Sequence record: MN850604.1
Length of the DNA: 50,596 nt
Direction: 5' to 3' (one strand)
Origin: Escherichia phage tunzivis
How positions within the stretch are numbered: the stretch's first letter is position 1; each line of letters begins with the position of its first letter. The translations under genes were made by a program, and so were the position numbers. The notes beneath the pieces are model-generated. The model had not been told where the DNA came from. It ran no database searches and saw only the letters and a list, made by a program, of their open reading frames with translations. Shown here piece by piece: positions 1,167-50,087 of the stretch.

Positions 1167-1197
1167 GGGGCGGCGTTTGTCGCCTCTTTTTTTTTGT
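1167..1197 (+). terminator. rho-independent terminator
   Basis: GC stem (GGGGCGGCG..CGCCTC) followed by run of 9 T. Confidence 0.6.
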
Positions 1198-1265
1198 TTA
1201 ATTTTTTACCATGTACGTTTATCATGCGGTCAATATATTGACTTTAATTAATATGGAGAATAAAA

Positions 1266-1481
1266 ATGAAAGATTTTATTAACGCAGCTACCGCTGGATC
1301 TGGCGGTTCATCTATCGCAAGCGCCGCTACAGGGCAGTTAACCATTGCTATTGCCAGCTTTGTTTTAATGGCTGCATTCGGTGCATGGGGCGCTTACCTT
1401 CGCTGGCGTGATAGTAAAAAATTCCACGAAGCGATCGAAAAAGGTGATATTCAAAAAGCTATTGAAATCAGGGGCAAGTAA
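1266..1481 (+). CDS. putative holin
   Basis: 71 aa; one hydrophobic TM stretch ([21 protein letters not shown]) and charged C-terminus; stop overlaps endolysin start (TAATG); RBS GGAGA upstream. Confidence 0.5.
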
Positions 1482-2381: not shown

Positions 2382-2603
2382 TGCGTCGGGCCACATATGA
2401 GTTTCGTTTGTTGGCTTGTTCGATTCGTCGTACTGCCTTACTTCAATGCTGCAAGTGTCGCCGTACATTTCTGAAATCTTGCGCTCATTTTCAACCGCCG
2501 ATTGCTCACTCCAGCCTGAATCCTTATCGTAAACTGTCGGAATTTCAGAAGAAGATCCATTTGCATGATTGTATACGCGAACTACTAAAAACTTGCTGGA
2601 CAT
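2379..2603 (-). CDS. hypothetical protein
   Basis: ORF 2379..2654; start chosen at internal ATG (MSSKFLVV) preceded by AAAAAGGAAAA; motif-type promoter upstream. Confidence 0.4.
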   Translation of the reverse strand: MSSKFLVVRVYNHANGSSSEIPTVYDKDSGWSEQSAVENERKISEMYGDTCSIEVRQYDESNKPTNETHMWPDA

Positions 2604-2664
2604 AATTTTTCCTTTTTGGTTGGTTCGTTTCGATGAAACAAATATACCCGACACAAGGTCTGGA

Positions 2665-5500: not shown

Positions 5501-5519
5501 CTTTTAACAAAAAGTGCTA
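5501..5519 (-). promoter_or_regulatory. conserved motif copy upstream of 5061..5447
   Basis: reverse complement of TAGCACTTTTTGTTAAAAg; hairpin GCCAGGTG..ACCTGGC; CATAAT 18 nt downstream. Confidence 0.55.
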
Positions 5520-6953: not shown

Positions 6954-7166
6954 TCATTTCTTATTTTTCATCTTAAATTTATGGCCTGGAACACCAGCAC
7001 CAATATATCCATCGTTGTATTCCATTAAATAAAGGTGAAGGCCATTATCTGAAATTACATGAGGATCTTCTTTGAGATTTCCCATTAGCGGGTATTCTTT
7101 TCCGCGCGTAAATCTCCAAGTTGAGTCATAAGTTTCTACGCATTTAAGTTTTAATTGCTTTGCCAT
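6954..7166 (-). CDS. hypothetical protein
   Basis: 70-aa ORF; start overlaps stop of upstream gene (TAATG). Confidence 0.45.
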   Translation of the reverse strand: MAKQLKLKCVETYDSTWRFTRGKEYPLMGNLKEDPHVISDNGLHLYLMEYNDGYIGAGVPGHKFKMKNKK

Positions 7167-7363
7167 TAGATGATCTCCATGTATGTTTCAAAGCCATTTA
7201 ACTTGAACAGGCCGTTTTCACATTTGCGAACGTTCCAAGTTAGCCCTGAGTGGTACGCCTCCATATCATCAAGGTCAATGGTGATTTCAGCACCTTTCTT
7301 AAACAAACCTTTTTCGTGAGACTTGTCGCGCTTAACAACTTTAACATCAACCTGATTTTCCAT
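7166..7363 (-). CDS. hypothetical protein
   Basis: 65-aa ORF; RBS GAGGAT; motif-type promoter upstream. Confidence 0.45.
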   Translation of the reverse strand: MENQVDVKVVKRDKSHEKGLFKKGAEITIDLDDMEAYHSGLTWNVRKCENGLFKLNGFETYMEII

Positions 7364-8742: not shown

Positions 8743-8749
8743 TTTGACG

Positions 8750-9300
8750 GTTATCGCCAGGATTGCGATCGAAATAATCAAAAGTAATCATTCGTAATCA
8801 AATCACGTCAAAATGATGATTGCCTTTGCAAATTTGATGAGAAAAGCAATCACGTTTAATCATTGGTTGCAGGGGAGATAGTGAAACCTTCCCCTCTTGC
8901 CTCACTTTTCCGCTTGGCTGTCAGCGGTTGTTGTCTTTTGTTCACCCCTGTTACCGATTTCAGGCGGCGTGTTTCCGCGCGGTTTTCCGGTGTATCGAAA
9001 ACGGAAAAAACAAAAAAAATCCTTTATAATACATTGAAAATAAAGATTATTTATTTATATATATCTATAATGTTTTCTTTTTGTTCTCACTGTTACAGTG
9101 CTTTTTGTTGGGTATGGTGTGTTTGTGTGTGGGTATATATGGATAGTTGCGCGCGCGGCGGATTGCATATGTATATATACTTTTTCCGGCGGATTGCGTT
9201 AACAGCGTGAACAGAAAAATAACAGCCCTGAAATCAATAACTTGCGCATGATTTTGTAGTTTTTCGATATTGGTAACGTTTTGAATACAACAAAAACATT
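8750..9300. repeat. AT-rich divergent control region with short direct repeats (TAATCA-type), TA/TG-rich tracts and a motif-like AGTGCTTTTTGTT
   Basis: TAATCA/AATCAC repeats 8775..8870; GGTTTTCCGGTGTATCGAAAAC 8981..9002; TTATTTATTTATATATATCTATAAT 9047..9071; GTGTGTTTGTGTGTGGGTATATATGG 9118..9143. Confidence 0.5.
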
Positions 9301-9326
9301 GACACGCACAAAATAGCTTTTATAAT
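9299..9326 (+). promoter_or_regulatory. consensus sigma70 promoter (TTGACA-16 nt-TATAAT), candidate early promoter
   Basis: TTGACA at 9299..9304, TATAAT at 9321..9326; 32 bp upstream of first rightward gene. Confidence 0.65.
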
Positions 9327-9357
9327 GCGCCAACAGTCAACAACTGGAGGAAAGGAA

Positions 9358-9822
9358 ATGGAACAGAAGACCACTAAGGACTATTGCGATTGGCTTCGCG
9401 AGCTTGGTCGCCGCCTGGCTAGTGGCGATATTGAAGAGTATAAAATGTCACTAATTGACCTGGCCGGAATGTTAAGCGGTGACGACTGCTACAAGATCAC
9501 GCGCAGTTCATCCTACAGCCGGACCATTATCAACCGCGTTCCAGAAGTAAGGGCCGCAGGTCGGGTAAGCATCAAGGTAGAGGAAACGGAAGATGATAAA
9601 TTTTACGTTTTCCGCATGGTCCGCGAATCGAAAAGGAAAATCATCACACCCGAAGAATTGCCAGCCATCAAGGCAAGGGCGATCAAAAAGTTTGCCGATC
9701 GCATACTGGCAGCAATCCCGAATATCGTGGACCTGGAAGGGGATAAACTGGCTGGGGCTTGCGAGGGTGTAAGCCGCTACCAGGATATGATCCGCGAAAT
9801 CATCAAAGAGGAAGAGCAATGA
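9358..9822 (+). CDS. hypothetical early protein (first gene after consensus sigma70 promoter)
   Basis: ORF 9325..9822; ATG at 9358 preceded by GGAGGAAAGG; 154 aa; a possible DNA-binding role is speculation. Confidence 0.45.
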   Translation: MEQKTTKDYCDWLRELGRRLASGDIEEYKMSLIDLAGMLSGDDCYKITRSSSYSRTIINRVPEVRAAGRVSIKVEETEDDKFYVFRMVRESKRKIITPEELPAIKARAIKKFADRILAAIPNIVDLEGDKLAGACEGVSRYQDMIREIIKEEEQ

Positions 9823-10107: not shown

Positions 10108-10163
10108 GCCAGGTGCAAAGCCTGGCATAATAGCCTCATCGAAACGAGATTGAGGAAACAAAA

Positions 10164-13667: not shown

Positions 13668-14258
13668 ATGAAACGAGACATTATCATTCTTAATGGGCCG
13701 CCAGGTTGCGGGAAGGACACTATTGCAGCTTACCTAACGGGCCATCGTTACCCAGCGGTTAAGGCGTCATTCAAACAGCCGATGTTCGATATTGCGTTTT
13801 CCATGCTTGGCCCGACTCGATATGATGAGTTTATTGACCTGTACAACGACCGAGAGCAAAAAGAAAAGCCTCAAGTTATCTTAGGCGGCAAGTCACCTCG
13901 ACAATTCATGATCTGGATTAGCGAGGATGTAATGAAGCCAGTCTTTGGGGATCACTATTTCGGGCGTCGCATGGTTGAAGAGATTCACGAGATGTACCGA
14001 GATTTAGCGGTTGTGATCAGTGATGGGGGATTCCCCGAAGAAGTCAAGCCGCTTGTTAAGGCAGGGCATGAGGTGCATATTTGCCGATTGCATCGCGACG
14101 GCTTCACGTTTGCTGGCGATTCGAGAGACTACATTGACCTGAGCGGTTATCACTATCGAATCCATCACTATGACTTCCACTTGCAGGACGGAAAGCCGGA
14201 ACTGGCTGTAAACGAGATCGTCAATGCTGTCAAATGGAAGCACACACAGATTAAATAG
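13668..14258 (+). CDS. P-loop kinase (dNMP kinase / polynucleotide kinase-like)
   Basis: 196 aa; Walker A LNGPPGCGKDT at N-terminus, as in phage nucleotide kinases. Confidence 0.55.
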   Translation: MKRDIIILNGPPGCGKDTIAAYLTGHRYPAVKASFKQPMFDIAFSMLGPTRYDEFIDLYNDREQKEKPQVILGGKSPRQFMIWISEDVMKPVFGDHYFGRRMVEEIHEMYRDLAVVISDGGFPEEVKPLVKAGHEVHICRLHRDGFTFAGDSRDYIDLSGYHYRIHHYDFHLQDGKPELAVNEIVNAVKWKHTQIK

Positions 14259-14273
14259 CACGAATTGCTAAAC
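14256..14273 (+). promoter_or_regulatory. conserved motif copy (variant TAGCACGAATTGCTAAAC) upstream of 14329..14730
   Basis: TATAAT at 14293..14298, 37 bp from TAGCAC; GC hairpin between. Confidence 0.5.
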
Positions 14274-14328
14274 GCGGGGCGCAATGCCTCGCTATAATGC
14301 AAACACCAATCAACGAGAGGAAACAATC

Positions 14329-15279: not shown

Positions 15280-15570
15280 ATGGCAAACAAAACTTACCGC
15301 AAACTACTTGTTAACGCTTTTGAAAACATCGCGCAGTGTAACAAGTGGAACGACTCTAAACACTCGCCAATCACAATGAAGCGCGCCGGATTCAAAAATG
15401 CTCGTTCATGGGCGCGAGCTTTCGCAGCTTGCTATATGCCGGATGGCGGACTAGGGGTGATGAACGATTTTTTGATCAACATGATAGAGGAAGCGGCGCG
15501 AGAGGATCGACCGCTGACACAGCGAGATTTTGACGGCTTCGCGCGCGATGAGCTTTACTATCTGAGCTAA
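15280..15570 (+). CDS. hypothetical protein
   Basis: 96-aa ORF; RBS AAGGGGA. Confidence 0.45.
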   Translation: MANKTYRKLLVNAFENIAQCNKWNDSKHSPITMKRAGFKNARSWARAFAACYMPDGGLGVMNDFLINMIEEAAREDRPLTQRDFDGFARDELYYLS

Positions 15571-18223: not shown

Positions 18224-19791
18224 TGATCATATGGGAAGATTTGACGGCGGCGCAAAAGCGAGCCATTAAAGAAATCAGTGAGCATTCATTCGAAAAGATG
18301 ATCAGAATCTGGTTTCAGTTATTGCAGGGGCAAAAATTCCAGAGCAACTGGCATTTTAGCTTATTGTGCAGTGAGGTAGAGAAGATCATCAATGGAGAGT
18401 CGCAGAATGTGATTTTCAACATTACGCCAGGTAGCGGTAAGACTGAGATTTTCTCGATCCACATGTCACCCTACGCGTCATTGAAAAGTCGGAAGGTGAG
18501 AAACCTTAACCTTTCGTTTAGTGATGGACTTGTCCAGCAAAACAGCAACAGGATAAAGGAGATTATCGGTTCTCCTGAGTGGCAAGAGCTATGGCCAGGA
18601 AAACTGGCAAAGGCGAGCGCAAAAGATCTCATAGTTACGGATGGCGGCAAGGTTAAATTGCAAGTTAACTCACGTTCTATTGGCGGACAGGTAACAGGTT
18701 TGCGTGGCGGCTATATGGATGATGGTTTTACTGGTATGCTGGTTCTGGACGATCCAGACAAGCCTGATGATATGCTTTCTAAGGTCAAGCGTGAGGCGAT
18801 CCACATGAGGTTAAAAAACACAGTGCGTTCTCGTCGAATGAAAGACACCACGCCAATTGTTATGGTGCAACAGCGACTACACGTTAATGATTCCACCTGG
18901 TTCATGCTTAATGGCGGGATGGGCGGTATTGAGTTTAAAGTTGTGAGCATTCCTGCGCTGGTTACGAAAGAATACCGCGAAACGCTTCCTGATTGGTTGA
19001 AGCCTGAATTTGATCGTGATGTGTTGTCAAGTAAGCCAGTGATGATAGATGGAGTTGCTCATTATTCATTTTGGCCTGCAAAGGAAAGCGCGGAGGAATT
19101 GCTTGCATTGCGCAATGCAGATCCTTACACGTTCGCCAGCCAATACCAACAACAACCCATCGCGCTTGGCGGCAACGTGTTTAAAACAGAGTGGTTCCAG
19201 TATTACGGCAGCGGCGAAAAATGCGCACTTCCTAAACCGGATCGCTTTGAATACACATTTATTACTGGAGATACAGCACAGAAGGCCGGAGAGCTTAACG
19301 ACTATTCAGTTTTTTGTTATTGGGGGATGTATAAAAATCGCGTTTACTTCATTGATGGCATTCGCGGCAAGTGGGAAGCGCCAGATCTTGAATTAAATTT
19401 TATTGCCTTCGTTAATCAGTGCTGGAAGCGCAATAAGGAGTGTGGCAGCTTGCGACGTATTCACATTGAGGATAAGGCCAGCGGCACGGGTTTGATTCAG
19501 GGGGCCAAAAAGAAGATCCCGATTGATATAAATCCCGTTCAGCGAAGCAATGACAAGGTAACGCGAGCAATGGACGCCGCGCCAGTAATGAGGGCAGGAC
19601 GTGTGGCACTGCCAGAAAGTCATCCCATGTTACCTGAGATACTGGCAGAGGTTGCAGCGTTCACTTTTGACGATTCTCATCCCCATGATGATATTGTCGA
19701 TAATATAGTTGATGCTGTTAACGTCGAAATGAACTTGGCAGATGATCCGGTAGCAAGGATGAAAAAGCTGGCTGGTCTACGCAATAAATAG
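18223..19791 (+). CDS. terminase large subunit
   Basis: 522 aa; P-loop-like TPGSGKTE in N-terminal ATPase half, acidic residues in C-terminal nuclease half; position TerS-TerL-portal. Confidence 0.8.
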   Translation: MIIWEDLTAAQKRAIKEISEHSFEKMIRIWFQLLQGQKFQSNWHFSLLCSEVEKIINGESQNVIFNITPGSGKTEIFSIHMSPYASLKSRKVRNLNLSFSDGLVQQNSNRIKEIIGSPEWQELWPGKLAKASAKDLIVTDGGKVKLQVNSRSIGGQVTGLRGGYMDDGFTGMLVLDDPDKPDDMLSKVKREAIHMRLKNTVRSRRMKDTTPIVMVQQRLHVNDSTWFMLNGGMGGIEFKVVSIPALVTKEYRETLPDWLKPEFDRDVLSSKPVMIDGVAHYSFWPAKESAEELLALRNADPYTFASQYQQQPIALGGNVFKTEWFQYYGSGEKCALPKPDRFEYTFITGDTAQKAGELNDYSVFCYWGMYKNRVYFIDGIRGKWEAPDLELNFIAFVNQCWKRNKECGSLRRIHIEDKASGTGLIQGAKKKIPIDINPVQRSNDKVTRAMDAAPVMRAGRVALPESHPMLPEILAEVAAFTFDDSHPHDDIVDNIVDAVNVEMNLADDPVARMKKLAGLRNK

Positions 19792-19808
19792 CACTAATTG
19801 CTAAAAAG
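19789..19808 (+). promoter_or_regulatory. conserved motif copy (variant TAGCACTAATTGCTAAAAAG) with adjacent TATAAT, between terminase and portal
   Basis: variant motif followed 4 nt later by TATAAT (19812..19817) and then a terminator hairpin; atypical spacing. Confidence 0.4.
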
Positions 19809-24393: not shown

Positions 24394-24411
24394 CATAAAA
24401 ACATCTTGCAC

Positions 24412-24429
24412 GTTTAACAAAAAGTGCTA
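24412..24429 (-). promoter_or_regulatory. inverted conserved motif copy in front of major capsid gene
   Basis: GTTTAACAAAAAGTGCTA on + strand, followed by hairpin/T-run and RBS GGAGG; no class-F -10 on either strand. Confidence 0.45.
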
Positions 24430-28124: not shown

Positions 28125-28163
28125 ATTCCTGTAAAATCAATCTATCAAATAAATTAATTCCAC

Positions 28164-28181
28164 TTTTAACAAAAAGTGCTA
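28164..28181 (-). promoter_or_regulatory. inverted conserved motif copy abutting RBS of tail chaperone G
   Basis: TTTTAACAAAAAGTGCTA then TAAGGAGATCTTAAGATG; on the opposite strand a TAGATT lies at the canonical +37 distance. Confidence 0.45.
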
Positions 28182-38955: not shown

Positions 38956-39325
38956 TTTGTTATTTTTTGTTTTCCGGTGTTATCGAATTTAAGACGGCGT
39001 AAATTTAGCGCAAAATTTAGACAACATAAGATCAATAAACAATCAATAAAATAGATATATACATATAAAATCAATAGTTTATTTATTTATGTATGTATAT
39101 TTGTTTTTTCTTGTTATCTGCGTTTCTTGTGGTTTTGGTTGTTTGTGGTGATTTTTCTTTCTGAGTATCTGTATGTGCCATCATTCATGTGTATGTATAT
39201 AATCCGGCGTATCTGAGAGAACATGGTAACAAGAAAAATAACACACATTAATCATTAACTTATGAGTCAAATCTGTTTTCTTGCCATCTGAGAACGTTTA
39301 GAAAACAGAAAAAACAAAACAGCTA
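38956..39325. repeat. second AT-rich divergent control region, partly homologous to 8750..9300
   Basis: GTTTTCCGGTGTTATCGAA 38969..38987 matches 8982..8999 with one inserted T; ATCAATA repeats; TTTATTTATTTATGTATGTATAT; GT-rich TGTGGTTTTGGTTGTTTGTGGTG. Confidence 0.5.
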
Positions 39326-39353
39326 TTGACTAAATCAACCAAATGGCTACAAT
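39326..39353 (+). promoter_or_regulatory. near-consensus sigma70 promoter (TTGACT-16 nt-TACAAT), candidate early promoter for recombination operon
   Basis: TTGACT 39326..39331, TACAAT 39348..39353; 30 bp upstream of exonuclease gene. Confidence 0.6.
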
Positions 39354-39383
39354 GCACGCATAAAGCAACAAGGAGCATTAAAG

Positions 39384-44896: not shown

Positions 44897-44913
44897 TAGC
44901 ACTTTTTGCTAAT
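44897..44913 (+). promoter_or_regulatory. near-palindromic conserved motif copy abutting RBS of tail fibre gene
   Basis: TAGCACTTTTTGCTAAT; read on the gene strand gives ATTAGCAAAAAGTGCTATTTAGGAGG...ATG. Confidence 0.45.
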
Positions 44914-44943
44914 GACAATGCAGATAATAGCATTTTCAAGTGC

Positions 44944-45914: not shown

Positions 45915-45969
45915 GGCAAACCTCAATAAAAAAGCCCAGCAAATATTATCATTTCGCTGAGCCTTATCA

Positions 45970-46446
45970 TTAGCTATTTGTGCTGTTATCACCTTTGTAG
46001 AATCGTCCGCCTGGTTCGTAGTCTGAATTTTTGACTACGCGCAACATCTCGTATTTGTCGCAACGGGTAGTAAGAGGCTTACCGTTAGAATCAAACCGCA
46101 GATCTGGACGACAAAATGATGCGCGGTATCCTTTGCATCCATTATATTTGTAGTCGTTATGCACCTTTTGTGCTCCAGCGGCTGAAATCATACCACGCTT
46201 TCGCCATTGGTTAACGACTTGCTGAGATACGCGTAGACGTCGAGCCATAGCAGGAACACCGCCATAATACTCGATCAGAATATCCAGGCGAGATTTCAGG
46301 CTTGCTTTTACCTCATCTCGCAGGATAAGAAATCCGGTTCGGTGTTTTCGTGGCTTTTTGTCTTTACCTCGTCGCGTTCCGTTGTTACCGTTAATAGTGC
46401 GCTTGTCGATCTCACCCGTAGAAACTGCAATTCGTGCATCTTTCAT
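45970..46446 (-). CDS. HTH DNA-binding protein (candidate transcription regulator)
   Basis: 158 aa; helix-turn-helix-like GGVPAMARRLRVSQQVVNQWRKRG; RBS AGGTGA abuts an inverted copy of the conserved motif. Confidence 0.5.
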   Translation of the reverse strand: MKDARIAVSTGEIDKRTINGNNGTRRGKDKKPRKHRTGFLILRDEVKASLKSRLDILIEYYGGVPAMARRLRVSQQVVNQWRKRGMISAAGAQKVHNDYKYNGCKGYRASFCRPDLRFDSNGKPLTTRCDKYEMLRVVKNSDYEPGGRFYKGDNSTNS

Positions 46447-46458
46447 CTAGTCACCTCA

Positions 46459-46477
46459 TAGCATTTTTTGTTAAAAC
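46459..46477 (+). promoter_or_regulatory. conserved motif copy (TAGCATTTTTTGTTAAAAC) in divergent region between HTH gene and helicase
   Basis: forward for helicase (TATTAT at +37); on the other strand it directly abuts the RBS of the HTH gene. Confidence 0.55.
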
Positions 46478-46533
46478 AGTTTATTGTAATGAGTCTATTA
46501 TATACTCCAAATGGCATTTTTTAAAGGTTTAAG

Positions 46534-48531
46534 ATGATTCCAAATATCGAAAAACAAATATCAGCGTTAGGCGAGGCAGTAATAAAAAGCATCCAAGAGC
46601 GATTCACGGTTGGCAATATAGTGCCTTATCCTTATCAGTGCGTTGCGTATGCAGAGATCGCAAAGCGCATGAAAAACTATGAGCATCCTTTCTTTGTTAA
46701 GGCTTCTGTATCGGCTGGCAAAACATTGATGTTTGCGATGGTTGCGGCGCAATGCCGCAAAATGGGATTGAAAATGATGGTCCTTGCTCGCCAGGCTGAA
46801 ATTGTTGATCAGGATTCGGAAGAGATCAGCAATCTTGGCGTGCCAAACTCAATCTATTGCGCAGGACTGAAAACAAAAAGCGCATACTTTCCGATCGTAG
46901 TCGGTTCTGAGGGCACTGTAGTAAACGGATTGTTTAAGTCGTTAGGTGATTATGTTCCGCACGTTATCGGTATTGATGAATGTCACCAGGTGGATTGGGA
47001 GGATCTCGCGGACGCGATAGAAAATAATGAATCTTACCAGCAGATGACCACTAAGAAGGATTTGCCTGTACTGATTGGAGAAGAACAGCAATTTGATTCC
47101 AATGGCGATCCAATGTTCGGAACAGGGCGCACACAGTACACCGTAATAATCATGGAAATGATGCGTAGGTGTCGCGAGGCATACGGGCACGAATTGCGAA
47201 TATTCGGCATGACTGGATCTGAGTTTCGCGGCGTGGTTCCAATACTGGTTGAAGATAAGAACAAAAAGGGATTCTGGCGTGAGCAGGTGACTAACATAGA
47301 CACAAACTACTTAATCAAATTCGGTTCGGTAGTGCCAACAAACTTCGGCGACGTAGGCGACCTGGGTTATGACCTTTCAGAGTTCGAAGCCAGTAGCGAG
47401 GATGGCGTTTCAGACTTTGACGCTAAAACATTGCGCAAGATGGAAGAAAAGATCCATCAAGACGCAACAATGACACAGAAAATCATGGCTAAAGTCCATG
47501 AGATATGCAAAGACAGGAACGGAGTTTTAGTTACATGCGCAGGGGAAAGGCACTGCAAGGAGGCTGCCGCCGCACTGCCGCCAGGCGTTGAATACAGGAT
47601 CATAACTGGCAAGACTGGAGATAATCAGCGTAAAGAGTGGCTGAGGGAGGCATACGAGGGAAAAGTAAAATACATCTTCCAGGTACAGGCGCTTACCACT
47701 GGCGTTAACGTTCCGTTTTGGGATACTTCTGTAATACTGAGAAAGATAGGATCTCTAACATTGCTTATCCAGCTTTTGGGGCGCGGCATGCGACTGCTTA
47801 AGCAATGGCACATTGAGCAGGGATTCAAGAAAAAAGATCATCTTGTATTGGATTTTGCAGGTACTATGGATGAGTTAGGTGATTTGTATTTCGATCCAAT
47901 CCTTGAGCAAGCGCAATTCCAAAAGAGATTTACAAACGGGAAAGAGCCTAAGACTTGTCCGATATGTGGAACGCTAAACAGCTTTTACGCTCGCCGATGT
48001 ATGCACGTAGACGATAACGGGAAGCGATGTGAGCATTTTTGGACTTACAGAATTTGCGAGGACCAGGTAGATCCGAGAACGAAAAAGATAATCAAGCGCG
48101 GTTGTGGAACAAAAAACGACGTAGTGGCGAGAGTATGCCGTTGTTGCGATATTTCTCTTGTCGATCCTAACGAGAAGTTAAGCGGTAAGCACTACACCAA
48201 AAACGATTGGTGCAACGTTAAATCTTTCCGCGTTGATATGACGAAAAACCAGAAAGGAATTATTTTTTGCTATGAGCTTGAGGCCAACGGCGACACGTTC
48301 AAGGCATACGAAAGATTTTTCCCTGAGTCAGAAAGCAACATTTGCCGGACGATATGGAGAAAAATAGCATTGCAGCACATACCGGATCGCAAGATTGCTG
48401 GTATGGTGGCGAGCTATAGAAATGCTCGTAAAATAATGTCATACGCTCATCACATCATGCCGCCTGTACGCGTAACGCATCGCAAAAACGGCAAAGGTGA
48501 GGATAACATTGCAAAACGGGAGTTTGTTTAA
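46534..48531 (+). CDS. superfamily-2 DNA helicase with C-terminal zinc ribbons
   Basis: 665 aa; Walker A SVSAGKT, DExH box GIDECHQ; C-terminal CPICG...CRCC clusters; motif-type promoter upstream. Confidence 0.75.
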   Translation: MIPNIEKQISALGEAVIKSIQERFTVGNIVPYPYQCVAYAEIAKRMKNYEHPFFVKASVSAGKTLMFAMVAAQCRKMGLKMMVLARQAEIVDQDSEEISNLGVPNSIYCAGLKTKSAYFPIVVGSEGTVVNGLFKSLGDYVPHVIGIDECHQVDWEDLADAIENNESYQQMTTKKDLPVLIGEEQQFDSNGDPMFGTGRTQYTVIIMEMMRRCREAYGHELRIFGMTGSEFRGVVPILVEDKNKKGFWREQVTNIDTNYLIKFGSVVPTNFGDVGDLGYDLSEFEASSEDGVSDFDAKTLRKMEEKIHQDATMTQKIMAKVHEICKDRNGVLVTCAGERHCKEAAAALPPGVEYRIITGKTGDNQRKEWLREAYEGKVKYIFQVQALTTGVNVPFWDTSVILRKIGSLTLLIQLLGRGMRLLKQWHIEQGFKKKDHLVLDFAGTMDELGDLYFDPILEQAQFQKRFTNGKEPKTCPICGTLNSFYARRCMHVDDNGKRCEHFWTYRICEDQVDPRTKKIIKRGCGTKNDVVARVCRCCDISLVDPNEKLSGKHYTKNDWCNVKSFRVDMTKNQKGIIFCYELEANGDTFKAYERFFPESESNICRTIWRKIALQHIPDRKIAGMVASYRNARKIMSYAHHIMPPVRVTHRKNGKGEDNIAKREFV

Positions 48532-48950
48532 TGGCTATAACTGATAAAGGAGATTATCTTGAGTTTTACGAAAGAGATCCAACCGACACGAGAAAGGAAG
48601 TTAATCACCAGATAGATAGCTTTCAGTGGTTGACTTATGCTCATCCTTATTTGCTAGCGTGGCATACGGTAAACGAGAATGAGAAGTCGAAAGTAACGGC
48701 GATGATTGATCAGCAGTCCGGATTGGTTAAGGGGGTAAGCGATTTCATCATCCTGATTGGTTCAAACGGAAAATACCCCTTTGCAGCGATTGAGATCAAA
48801 CGAGTTAATAAATCAGGCAAGGGGAAAGCATCACCAGTCAGCGATGAACAAAAGGCTTTTTTGCGTCGCGTTCGCAGCTTAGGAGGATTCGCTGCGGTCG
48901 CCTACGGATTTAATCAGTTTAAGTTAGCTATTGAATACATGCTTAAATAG
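48531..48950 (+). CDS. VRR-NUC-type nuclease (putative)
   Basis: 139 aa; PD-(D/E)xK-like core VSDFIILIGSNGKYPFAAIEIKR...SDEQK; ATGA overlap with helicase. Confidence 0.45.
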   Translation: MAITDKGDYLEFYERDPTDTRKEVNHQIDSFQWLTYAHPYLLAWHTVNENEKSKVTAMIDQQSGLVKGVSDFIILIGSNGKYPFAAIEIKRVNKSGKGKASPVSDEQKAFLRRVRSLGGFAAVAYGFNQFKLAIEYMLK

Positions 48951-48966
48951 CACTTTTTGTTAAAAC
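48948..48966 (+). promoter_or_regulatory. conserved motif copy upstream of dam
   Basis: exact 19-mer; hairpin TGGCGCgatggattGCGCCA; CATAAT 48985..48990. Confidence 0.55.
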
Positions 48967-49024
48967 TGGCGCGATGGATTGCGCCATAATTCAATAACAC
49001 GAGATGGCTTTTAATAGCGGAGAA

Positions 49025-49756
49025 ATGAAAATGGCTAAAGATATTTTAGATAAAGACACCCATGACGCATTTGTTAGCTTTGAGCAGTTGGAGAGAGAAA
49101 CGTTTATAGGAAATGCTCTTGCAACTGGAGGCTATTACCAGGCAGTAAAGCCAAATCAATATTATAAGGTAAGCGGCAACCGATACGCTGGAAGCACTAC
49201 GCCGGACGTTGTGCGCGATATGTGGAGCACACCTCAAGAGATCGTTGAGTGGATGGAATCAGAATTTGGCGAATACGATCTCGACGCGGCAGCAAGCCAG
49301 GAAAACGCAGTTTGCGAGAAGTTCTATAGCAAGGAAACAAACTGCTTAAAGCGTTGGTGGGGTAGCAACAAGCACGTATGGCTTAACCCGCCGTACAGCA
49401 ACCCAACTCCATTTATCAAGAAAGCAATTGAGCAAATGGAGCACAACAACCAAATTGATGTTTTGCTGCCTGCCGACAATTCCACGGCCTGGTTTTATGA
49501 GGCGCAGAAAAACGCGGCTGAAATCATCTGGATCACTGGAGAAGTTTACGAAGAGGGGGGAGTGGAATATTCCCGCACCGGAAGAATCGCCTTTGTGTCT
49601 GGATTGACTGGCGAGCCTGTACAGGGCAACAATAAGGGGAGCGTGATTTTTGTCATGCGTAAACTTAAAGAAGGCGAAGAGCAGAAAACGCGATACGTTA
49701 AGATCAGCGATATTTGCCCTTCTGTAACCGAACGCCGCGCGCGCAAACGGAGCTAA
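49025..49756 (+). CDS. dam: DNA N6-adenine methyltransferase (phage Dam-type)
   Basis: ORF 49004..49756; start placed at ATG 49025 after GGAG; catalytic NPPY motif (WLNPPYSN). Confidence 0.7.
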   Translation: MKMAKDILDKDTHDAFVSFEQLERETFIGNALATGGYYQAVKPNQYYKVSGNRYAGSTTPDVVRDMWSTPQEIVEWMESEFGEYDLDAAASQENAVCEKFYSKETNCLKRWWGSNKHVWLNPPYSNPTPFIKKAIEQMEHNNQIDVLLPADNSTAWFYEAQKNAAEIIWITGEVYEEGGVEYSRTGRIAFVSGLTGEPVQGNNKGSVIFVMRKLKEGEEQKTRYVKISDICPSVTERRARKRS

Positions 49757-50037: not shown

Positions 50038-50087
50038 GCCCGGCATTTTGTCGGGCATAATTATTTCATCGAAACGAACGTGAGGAA

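What the first reader, a model, noticed from the sequence alone, without database searches (positions are those of the whole stretch)
45970..46446. HTH protein encoded next to a dual-orientation motif copy: candidate regulator of the motif-dependent promoters
This 158-aa protein has a clear helix-turn-helix-like segment. Its RBS directly abuts the motif copy at 46459..46477, so its own expression is likely coupled to the element it might recognise (an autoregulation-like layout). Together with the first early gene product (9358..9822) it is a reasonable candidate for the factor acting at the 19-bp element.
Basis: inference. Interest (0 to 1): 0.45.

Follow-up and report, generated by a model that had tools for sequence, protein, structure and literature searches.

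The report
T1-type phage regulator Pir orthologue
This gene encodes the counterpart of Pir, a phage T1 regulator already shown to switch phage promoters on and its own promoter off, and it sits beside a copy of the repeated promoter element it probably acts on, so the finding is largely known biology with one untested link.

Summary
The window is a near-complete T1-like phage genome (Drexlerviridae, Warwickvirus; 99.6% identical to phage tonn). ORF 45970..46446(-) encodes a 158-aa protein with a Cro-type helix-turn-helix core, and its ribosome-binding site lies 1 nt from the element copy at 46459..46477.

The protein is the syntenic orthologue (58% identity) of T1 Orf23, called Pir. Published GFP reporters show that Pir activates Pdam and Phol and represses its own promoter and PrecE.

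I mapped the published primers onto T1:
- Pdam carries the element at the standard position.
- Ppir carries it in its 5' leader.

The element is a near-palindrome, TAGCA-N5-TG(C/T)TA. It ends 18 nt before a -10 hexamer, which centres it near -42 in place of a -35, as at a class II activator site. The element is already published as an unexplained 21-nt repeat in phage TLS.

The gene has one of only three ordinary sigma-70 promoters in the genome. That promoter's -10 overlaps the -10 of the divergent helicase promoter.

Direct binding of Pir to the element is still unproven, and three results count against a simple model:
- The recognition helix is not conserved, although the element is.
- An element with GAA at its centre (T1 Porf65) did not respond to Pir.
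- Phol and PrecE respond to Pir without a full element.

The parts
45970..46446 (-). Coding sequence of the Pir orthologue (158 aa). It has a disordered, invariant basic N-terminal arm (aa 1-34), a Cro-type HTH core (about aa 42-117) and a C-terminal extension.
46452..46457 (-). Ribosome-binding site GAGGTG, 5 nt before the ATG and 1 nt from the element.
   Evidence: Read directly from the sequence.
46459..46477 (+). Element copy with TTT at its centre, TAGCATTTTTTGTTAAAAC. The near-palindromic core is 46459..46473, centred near -42 of the helicase promoter and near +25 of the Pir transcript.
   Evidence: A TTT-centre copy is present at this site in 26 of the 27 lineage rows; L049 has TTA. The two most distant homologues also carry it.
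46496..46501 (+). -10 hexamer TATTAT of the element-type helicase promoter, 18 nt after the element.
   Evidence: The spacing rule comes from 348 copies in related loci.
46497..46525 (-). Sigma-70-type promoter of the Pir gene, TTTAAA-17-TATAAT (10 of 12 consensus positions). Its -10 (46502..46497) overlaps the helicase -10 by 5 of 6 bases.
   Evidence: The TLS equivalent, P57, is listed in that paper's Table S1.
45928..45965 (-). Hairpin followed by U6, directly after the stop codon. It is probably an intrinsic terminator that makes the Pir gene its own transcription unit.
   Evidence: -22.6 kcal/mol, z -3.7, for the 71-nt stretch 45915..45985 that contains the hairpin. The simple terminator scan did not call it. 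The T1 record annotates a terminator between ST23 and ST24, and TLS lists T57.
45943..45985 (-). Degenerate element CAGCACAAATAGCTAATGA, then 18 nt, then TAATAT, pointing at the primase gene. This is tentative: it has 3 mismatches, which is within chance on its own.
   Evidence: Equivalent copies lie at the 3' end of the gene in T1 (35994-), L040, L046, L050 and as TLS DR10.
46534..48531 (+). Helicase gene, the divergent gene driven by the element-type promoter.
48948..48966 (+). Element copy before the Dam methylase gene (49004..49756). It corresponds to the T1 Pdam promoter that Pir activates.
   Evidence: PMC6737242.

Best explanation
The ORF encodes the Warwickvirus orthologue of phage T1 Pir (Orf23). 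I read it as the phage's early-to-middle transcription switch.

1. The host sigma-70 polymerase transcribes the gene from one of only three ordinary -35/-10 promoters in the genome.
2. The protein then acts at the TTT-centre version of the repeated element, TAGCAC-TTT-TTG(T/C)TAAA. This near-palindrome is centred near -42 and takes the place of a -35 hexamer upstream of a good -10.
3. Most likely the protein binds there as a dimer and recruits polymerase in the manner of a class II activator.
4. At its own locus the same copy serves the divergent helicase promoter. The two -10 hexamers overlap, and the element lies about +14..+32 in the Pir leader. Activating the helicase promoter therefore shuts off Pir's own promoter.

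Shown by experiment in T1: activation of Pdam and Phol, and repression of Ppir and PrecE.
Shown here: orthology, the fold, the promoter geometry, and conservation of the layout.
Inferred: direct binding to the element, dimeric binding, and the polymerase contact.
For: - Orthology and synteny with T1 ST23.
- PMC6737242 reports that Pir activates Pdam and Phol and represses Ppir and PrecE.
- Mapping that paper's primers shows Pdam has a TTT-centre element followed by 18 nt and CATTAT, and Ppir has the reverse-complemented element downstream of TATAAT.
- Geometry: 13 of 16 window copies have a -10-like hexamer exactly 18 nt downstream. Among 348 distinct copies in related loci, 258 have it at 18 nt, 43 at 17 and 11 at 19, with a conserved CA at +1.
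- The element core is an inverted repeat, TAGCA-N5-TG(C/T)TA.
- The Pir promoter is sigma-70 type and free of the element on its own upstream side. It matches one of the three such promoters listed for TLS.
- A TTT-centre copy lies 7-14 nt from the Pir ATG in 26 of the 27 lineage rows; L049 has TTA at 16 nt. The two most distant homologues also carry it.
- The protein is in 849 phage records, essentially all T1-like phages.
- No other sequence-detectable DNA-binding protein was found among 30 small early proteins.
Against: - Nobody has shown binding to the element, and the Pir paper defines no site.
- The presumed base-contacting positions of the HTH (aa 75, 76, 79, 80) have no conserved column across the family, although the element is invariant. 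In one homologue they are G, L, V, L.
- T1 Porf65 has a perfect GAA-centre element but is reported to be Pir-independent.
- Phol and PrecE respond to Pir without a full element.
- All functional data come from a 58%-identical orthologue, from plasmid reporters.
Confidence: 0.6

Rival explanations
1. Pir regulates transcription but does not read the 19-bp element. It could act on RNA polymerase itself, for example with the invariant N-terminal arm binding sigma-70 or the beta flap so that -35-dependent promoters are weakened and -35-less ones are favoured. Alternatively it could bind other sites. The element would then be read by another factor or act as an UP-like sequence.
For: - The two promoters Pir represses (Ppir, PrecE) are the classical -35/-10 ones.
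- Phol and PrecE respond without a full element, and the GAA-centre Porf65 does not respond.
- The invariant part of the protein is the disordered arm, not the recognition helix.
- The arm is conserved at the protein level, because its codons vary synonymously.
Against: - The near-palindromic element centred near -42 is the classic form of a site for a dimeric HTH activator.
- A TTT-centre copy is kept next to the Pir gene in 26 of the 27 lineage rows, while the copy at the corresponding position upstream in related loci (the Pdam position in T1) changes type between lineages.
- No other conserved DNA-binding candidate was found.
Confidence: 0.2
2. The protein is mainly a local Cro-like autorepressor or a replication-module protein (origin binding or helicase/primase loading). 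It would have no genome-wide role at the element.
For: - The gene sits between primase and helicase.
- The fold is Cro-like.
- The variable recognition helix would fit phage-specific local operators.
Against: - In T1, Pir changes the activity of distant promoters (dam, hol, recE) in uninfected cells, and depleting it blocks lysis.
- No phage-specific repeat was seen around the gene other than the shared element.
Confidence: 0.1
3. The first early gene product (9358..9822, DUF7174) is the factor that reads the element.
For: - It is expressed from a perfect TTGACA-16-TATAAT promoter at 9299..9326.
Against: - T1 has no detectable homologue (tblastn at E up to 10) although it carries 24 element-like matches.
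- It is in only 232 phage records against 849 for Pir.
- No experiment bears on it.
- Its position next to the repeat-rich, AT-rich non-coding region 8743..9357 fits an origin-binding role better.
Confidence: 0.04

Closest known systems
Phage T1 Pir (Orf23/ST23), 'prophage induction regulator' (Laganenka et al. 2019, PMC6737242)
   Same: 58% identity over 142 aa. Same position between primase and helicase. Same element copy and overlapping divergent promoters upstream. Same terminator downstream.
   Different: No experiment has been done on this phage's protein. The recognition-helix residues differ (QQ..NQ here, NQ..QG in T1). The T1 paper interprets Pir as a lysogeny-lysis switch and defines no binding site.
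The 21-nt direct repeat aaATAGCACnnnTTGnTAAAA of TLS, T1, Rtp and Rogue1 (PMC11447400)
   Same: It is the same element, with the same orientation rule and the same subgroups defined by the central triplet.
   Different: That paper leaves the function open (stoperator, enhancer or UP element) and names no factor. Two points are added here: the fixed 18-nt distance to a -10 hexamer, and the link to Pir.
Cro proteins of lambdoid phages (P22 Cro, Xfaso 1 Cro, N15 Cro; Pfam PF14549 and PF15943)
   Same: The HTH core has the same fold and detectable sequence similarity. Cro proteins bind near-palindromic operators as dimers and repress.
   Different: The protein is about twice as long. It adds an invariant 34-aa basic arm and a C-terminal extension. 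It activates as well as represses. Its recognition helix is not conserved within the family.
Class II activation, as by lambda cI at PRM (operator OR2 centred at -42) or CRP at -41.5 (from general knowledge)
   Same: A dyad site centred near -42 overlaps the -35 position of a promoter that has a good -10 and no usable -35.
   Different: This is an analogy of geometry only. No contact with sigma region 4 or the alpha subunit has been tested.
Phage T4 MotA/AsiA middle promoters (from general knowledge)
   Same: A phage-encoded early factor redirects host sigma-70 polymerase to promoters in which a phage-specific box replaces the -35.
   Different: The MotA box is not a palindrome and sits at -30. 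T4 needs a separate co-factor that binds sigma. There is no sequence or fold similarity.

Membership tests
T1 Pir family (PHROG 2856) | Full-length sequence homology to T1 ST23. | tested here: met
   tblastn gives 58% identity over 142 aa, E 7e-51. PHROG 2856 matches at E 1.6e-72.
T1 Pir family (PHROG 2856) | Gene lies between the primase gene and the divergent helicase gene. | tested here: met
   The same order is seen in the most distant homologues.
T1 Pir family (PHROG 2856) | Activates Pdam and Phol and represses its own promoter. | not testable with these tools
   This is known only for T1. The promoter sequences are equivalent in this window.
Cro/YdaS-type HTH (Pfam PF14549, PF15943) | Score above the Pfam gathering threshold. 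| tested here: not met
   28.7 bits against a cut-off of 30, and 19.9 against 30.2. Many homologues do carry precomputed PF15943 or PF14549 hits.
Cro/YdaS-type HTH (Pfam PF14549, PF15943) | Cro-like fold of the HTH core. | tested here: met
Cro/YdaS-type HTH (Pfam PF14549, PF15943) | Sequence-specific binding as a dimer to a near-palindromic operator. | not testable with these tools
   A suitable near-palindrome is adjacent. The recognition helix, however, is not conserved.
Class II transcription activators | Binding site centred near -41.5 and overlapping the -35 region. | tested here: met
   The element ends 18 nt before the -10 hexamer and there is a conserved CA at +1, which puts the dyad centre near -42. 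Start sites are predicted, not mapped.
Class II transcription activators | Direct contact with RNA polymerase (sigma region 4 or the alpha subunit). | not testable with these tools
   No data.

The most novel reading that the evidence does not exclude
Drexlerviridae may use a two-letter promoter code. The same TAGCA..TG(C/T)TA frame would carry either a TTT or a GAA/TAA centre, each read by a different phage regulator: Pir for TTT, and Orf65-like proteins for the others. In addition, Pir may recognise its invariant target through the disordered but invariant N-terminal arm (DKRxxNGNNGxxRGxD) rather than through its variable HTH recognition helix.
Probability: 0.2. Interest if true: 0.6.

Novelty: already known. 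Interest (0 to 1): 0.33.

Why it matters
The repeated element in T1-like phages has stood without an assigned function or factor in the phage TLS re-annotation (PMC11447400). Separately, Pir was shown to regulate T1 promoters, but no binding site was defined. Putting the two together gives a concrete and cheap test. If it holds, it would explain how this very common phage family (849 records in the collection searched) runs most of its transcription with host polymerase and one small protein. It would also supply a compact activator/promoter pair for engineering. For this window the practical result is simple: the gene is correctly annotated as a transcriptional regulator and is not a new kind of system.

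Tried and rejected
- Sigma-54 promoter. TAGCAC..TTGC resembles TGGCAC-N5-TTGC, but the spacing is 2 nt short, the GG is missing, and a sigma-70 -10 follows at a fixed distance.
- TTG(T/C)TA as an ordinary -35. The spacer to the -10 would be 21 nt.
- N-terminal conservation caused by an overlapping DNA signal. Rejected because the invariant residues use 2-5 synonymous codons.
Close Orf65 homologues (73-100% identity) were found on only 14 viral contigs, all T1-like, while GAA-centre copies are widespread. The window has only a weak profile-level match, at 15280..15570 (phrog_10642, E 9e-6). Pairwise BLASTP is not significant.
- My interim idea that the window has only TTT-centre copies was wrong.
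- Loci of the most distant homologues were not found in viral or metagenome contigs. Two were recovered through the look-up of encoding contigs.
- The N-terminal arm has no match in PDB.
- No transcriptome or start-site study of Drexlerviridae, and no later work on Pir, turned up.
- No convincing CRP site was seen by eye in the Pir promoter. This was not searched systematically.

Full report
WHAT THE WINDOW IS. The 50.6-kb window is an almost complete genome of a T1-like phage. The 3.6-kb stretch around the finding is 99.6% identical to Escherichia phage tonn (Drexlerviridae, Tempevirinae, Warwickvirus). In that record the ORF in question is annotated 'transcriptional regulator', flanked by primase and helicase.

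45970..46446(-) is a 158-aa ORF starting with ATG. Its ribosome-binding site, GAGGTG, lies at 46452..46457 on the complement, 5 nt before the ATG and 1 nt from the element at 46459..46477. Evidence for the HTH:
- Pfam places a YdaS/P22-Cro-type HTH at aa 55-90, just below threshold.
- PHROG 2856 'transcriptional regulator' matches at E 1.6e-72.
- An AlphaFold2 model built on 61 homologues has mean pLDDT 85. Residues 35-148 are folded and residues 1-33 are disordered.
- A profile of the family finds P22 Cro and Xfaso 1 Cro in PDB at E about 0.003-0.004.

The element is real: 16 copies with at most 3 mismatches against 0.07 expected. The copy next to the gene is not 'dual-orientation'. It points towards the helicase gene, although its core is a near-palindrome.

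WHAT THE ELEMENT IS. I aligned the copies in their own orientation.
- In 13 of 16 copies a -10-like hexamer (CATAAT, TATAAT, TATAGT and similar) starts exactly 18 nt after the element. In the other three it starts at 17 or 19 nt.
- Among 348 distinct copies in 81 related loci, the hexamer is at 18 nt in 258, at 17 nt in 43 and at 19 nt in 11. A conserved CA sits where +1 is expected.
- The element therefore spans about -49..-31 and replaces the -35. TTG(T/C)TA cannot be a normal -35, because the spacer would be 21 nt.
- Across the family the consensus is aaaTAGCAC-(TTT/GAA/TAA/AAA)-TTG(C/T)TAAA. This is an inverted repeat, TAGCA-N5-TG(C/T)TA, centred near -42. That is the geometry of a class II activator site, as for lambda cI at PRM.
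- The element is already published. The 2024 TLS re-annotation describes a 21-nt direct repeat, aaATAGCACnnnTTGnTAAAA, with T, G and A subgroups. It is also present in T1, Rtp and Rogue1. Its function was left open (stoperator, enhancer or UP element) and no factor was named (PMC11447400).

WHAT THE PROTEIN IS. T1 ST23 lies between primase ST24 and helicase ST22 and is 58% identical to the window protein over 142 aa. Laganenka et al. 2019 renamed T1 Orf23 'Pir'. They reported the following (PMC6737242):
- In GFP reporters in uninfected E. coli, Pir activates Phol and Pdam and represses its own promoter and PrecE.
- CRISPRi against pir blocks lysis.
- cAMP-CRP represses Ppir.
- A second protein, Orf65, represses pir and activates its own promoter, which is Pir-independent.

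The paper defines no binding site. I mapped its primers onto T1:
- Pdam contains a TTT-centre element followed by 18 nt and CATTAT.
- Ppir contains TATAAT followed by the reverse-complemented element in the leader.
- Porf65 contains a perfect GAA-centre element.
- Phol and PrecE have no full element.

So the one tested promoter with a TTT-centre element upstream of its -10 is activated. The promoter with the element downstream of its own -10 is repressed.

THE LOCAL SWITCH.
- On the minus strand a sigma-70-type promoter, TTTAAA-17-TATAAT (46525..46497, 10 of 12 consensus positions), precedes the gene. Its -10 (46502..46497) overlaps the -10 of the element-type helicase promoter (46496..46501) by five bases.
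- The element lies about +14..+32 in the Pir leader. Polymerase recruited to the helicase promoter would exclude polymerase from the Pir promoter. This accounts for autorepression without a separate operator.
- A strong hairpin with a U6 tail follows the stop codon. The T1 and TLS annotations also place a terminator there.
- The window has only two other good promoters free of the element: a perfect TTGACA-16-TATAAT at 9299..9326 and TTGACT-16-TACAAT at 39326..39353 before recE. These are the same three positions that TLS Table S1 lists as its only sigma-70 promoters: P01, P51 and P57, the last before the Pir homologue.
- The layout is conserved. In 26 of the 27 lineage rows a TTT-centre copy lies 7-14 nt from the Pir ATG, followed by 18 nt and TATTAT(A). 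The exception, L049, has TTA at 16 nt. Copies at the corresponding position 2.5 kb upstream, the Pdam position in T1, change type between lineages.
- The two most distant homologues I could place on contigs (35-39% identity to the window protein in the alignment) also have the identical arrangement.

WHAT ARGUES AGAINST A SIMPLE READING.
- In 13 maximally divergent family members the invariant columns are M1, D14, R16, N19, G20, N21, R26, G27 and R33 (the disordered arm), E45, A48 and R53 (first helix), G62, R113 and D115.
- No column in the recognition helix (aa 74-83) is invariant or nearly invariant. The positions equivalent to lambda Cro Q27, S28, N31 and K32 range from Q,Q,N,Q to G,L,V,L.
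- The conservation of the arm is at the protein level, because its codons vary synonymously.
- An invariant DNA target paired with a variable recognition helix is unusual for an HTH regulator. Either the arm contributes the specificity, or the invariant partner is something else, such as RNA polymerase.
- Together with the Pir-independence of the GAA-centre Porf65 and the responses of Phol and PrecE, this keeps a polymerase-directed mechanism alive as a rival.

THE OTHER CANDIDATE. The product of 9358..9822 is DUF7174.
- It is found in 232 phage records, against 849 for Pir.
- T1 has no detectable homologue even at E 10, although T1 has 24 element-like matches at up to 2 mismatches.
- It cannot be the general factor.
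- None of 30 other small early proteins hit a DNA-binding Pfam family.

VERDICT. The connection between them appears not to have been stated in the papers I could search. It is well supported by geometry and conservation but lacks a binding experiment. I put 0.6 on direct action at the TTT-centre element.

Noticed in passing
window 8743..9357: A roughly 600-bp non-coding region lies between the two divergent early gene blocks. It holds a cluster of (T)AATCA repeats (8760..8870), a very AT-rich stretch (9000..9100) and the repeated GGCGGATTGC. It may be a replication origin. The adjacent gene 9358..9822 has a weak RepE/winged-helix-like fold.
   Followed up: partly
window 38956..39383: A second AT-rich non-coding region of about 430 bp lies before recE. 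It has similar 'tatatata' and 'ccggcg' features and ends in a sigma-70-type promoter at 39326..39353.
   Followed up: no
window 24411..24429(-), 28163..28181(-), 44897..44915(+): Three element copies lie in the orientation opposite to the flanking late genes. Each sits just upstream of a structural gene: major capsid, tape-measure chaperone and tail fibre. T1 has the same three (15085-, 18849-, 34903+). Two of them have weak -10 hexamers at 18 nt, so they could be antisense promoters or roadblocks.
   Followed up: partly
window 14256..14274(+) and 15280..15570(+): This is the only GAA-centre element found in the window (TAGCACGAATTGCTAAACG, then 18 nt, then TATAAT). The last gene of the run of same-strand genes downstream of it (96 aa) gives a profile-level match to the T1 Orf65 family (phrog_10642, E 9e-6; phrog_8758, E 4e-20). 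Orf65 is the second regulator reported for T1.
   Followed up: partly
window, spacers after the elements at 5501, 8724, 10089, 48948 and 50019; also 4827, 7419, 11769, 12936 and 15571: The 18-nt spacer between the element and the -10 is usually a GC-rich inverted repeat, or else an inverted repeat brackets the -10 itself. In TLS some of these are annotated as terminators. The units therefore look like combined terminator-promoter modules.
   Followed up: partly
window, leaders downstream of many element-type promoters (for example 2600..2625, 10135..10150, 50065..50080): A conserved leader, CATCGAAACGAAC, begins at about the predicted +1, ahead of the ribosome-binding site.
   Followed up: no
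window 19789..19807(+): A TAA-centre element lies between the large terminase and portal genes. Its TATAAT is only 4 nt downstream, so it does not fit the promoter geometry.
   Followed up: no
window 7166..7363(-): A 65-aa early protein matches Pfam PF25180, 'Phage antiviral trigger protein Gp54' (E 1.7e-38).
   Followed up: no
window 1187..1225: The holin gene (1266..1481) has no element upstream. There is only a terminator T-run followed by TATCAT. In T1, the Pir-activated Phol has a CTTTTTG core 25 nt before TAAAAT, in the same register as in the element.
   Followed up: partly
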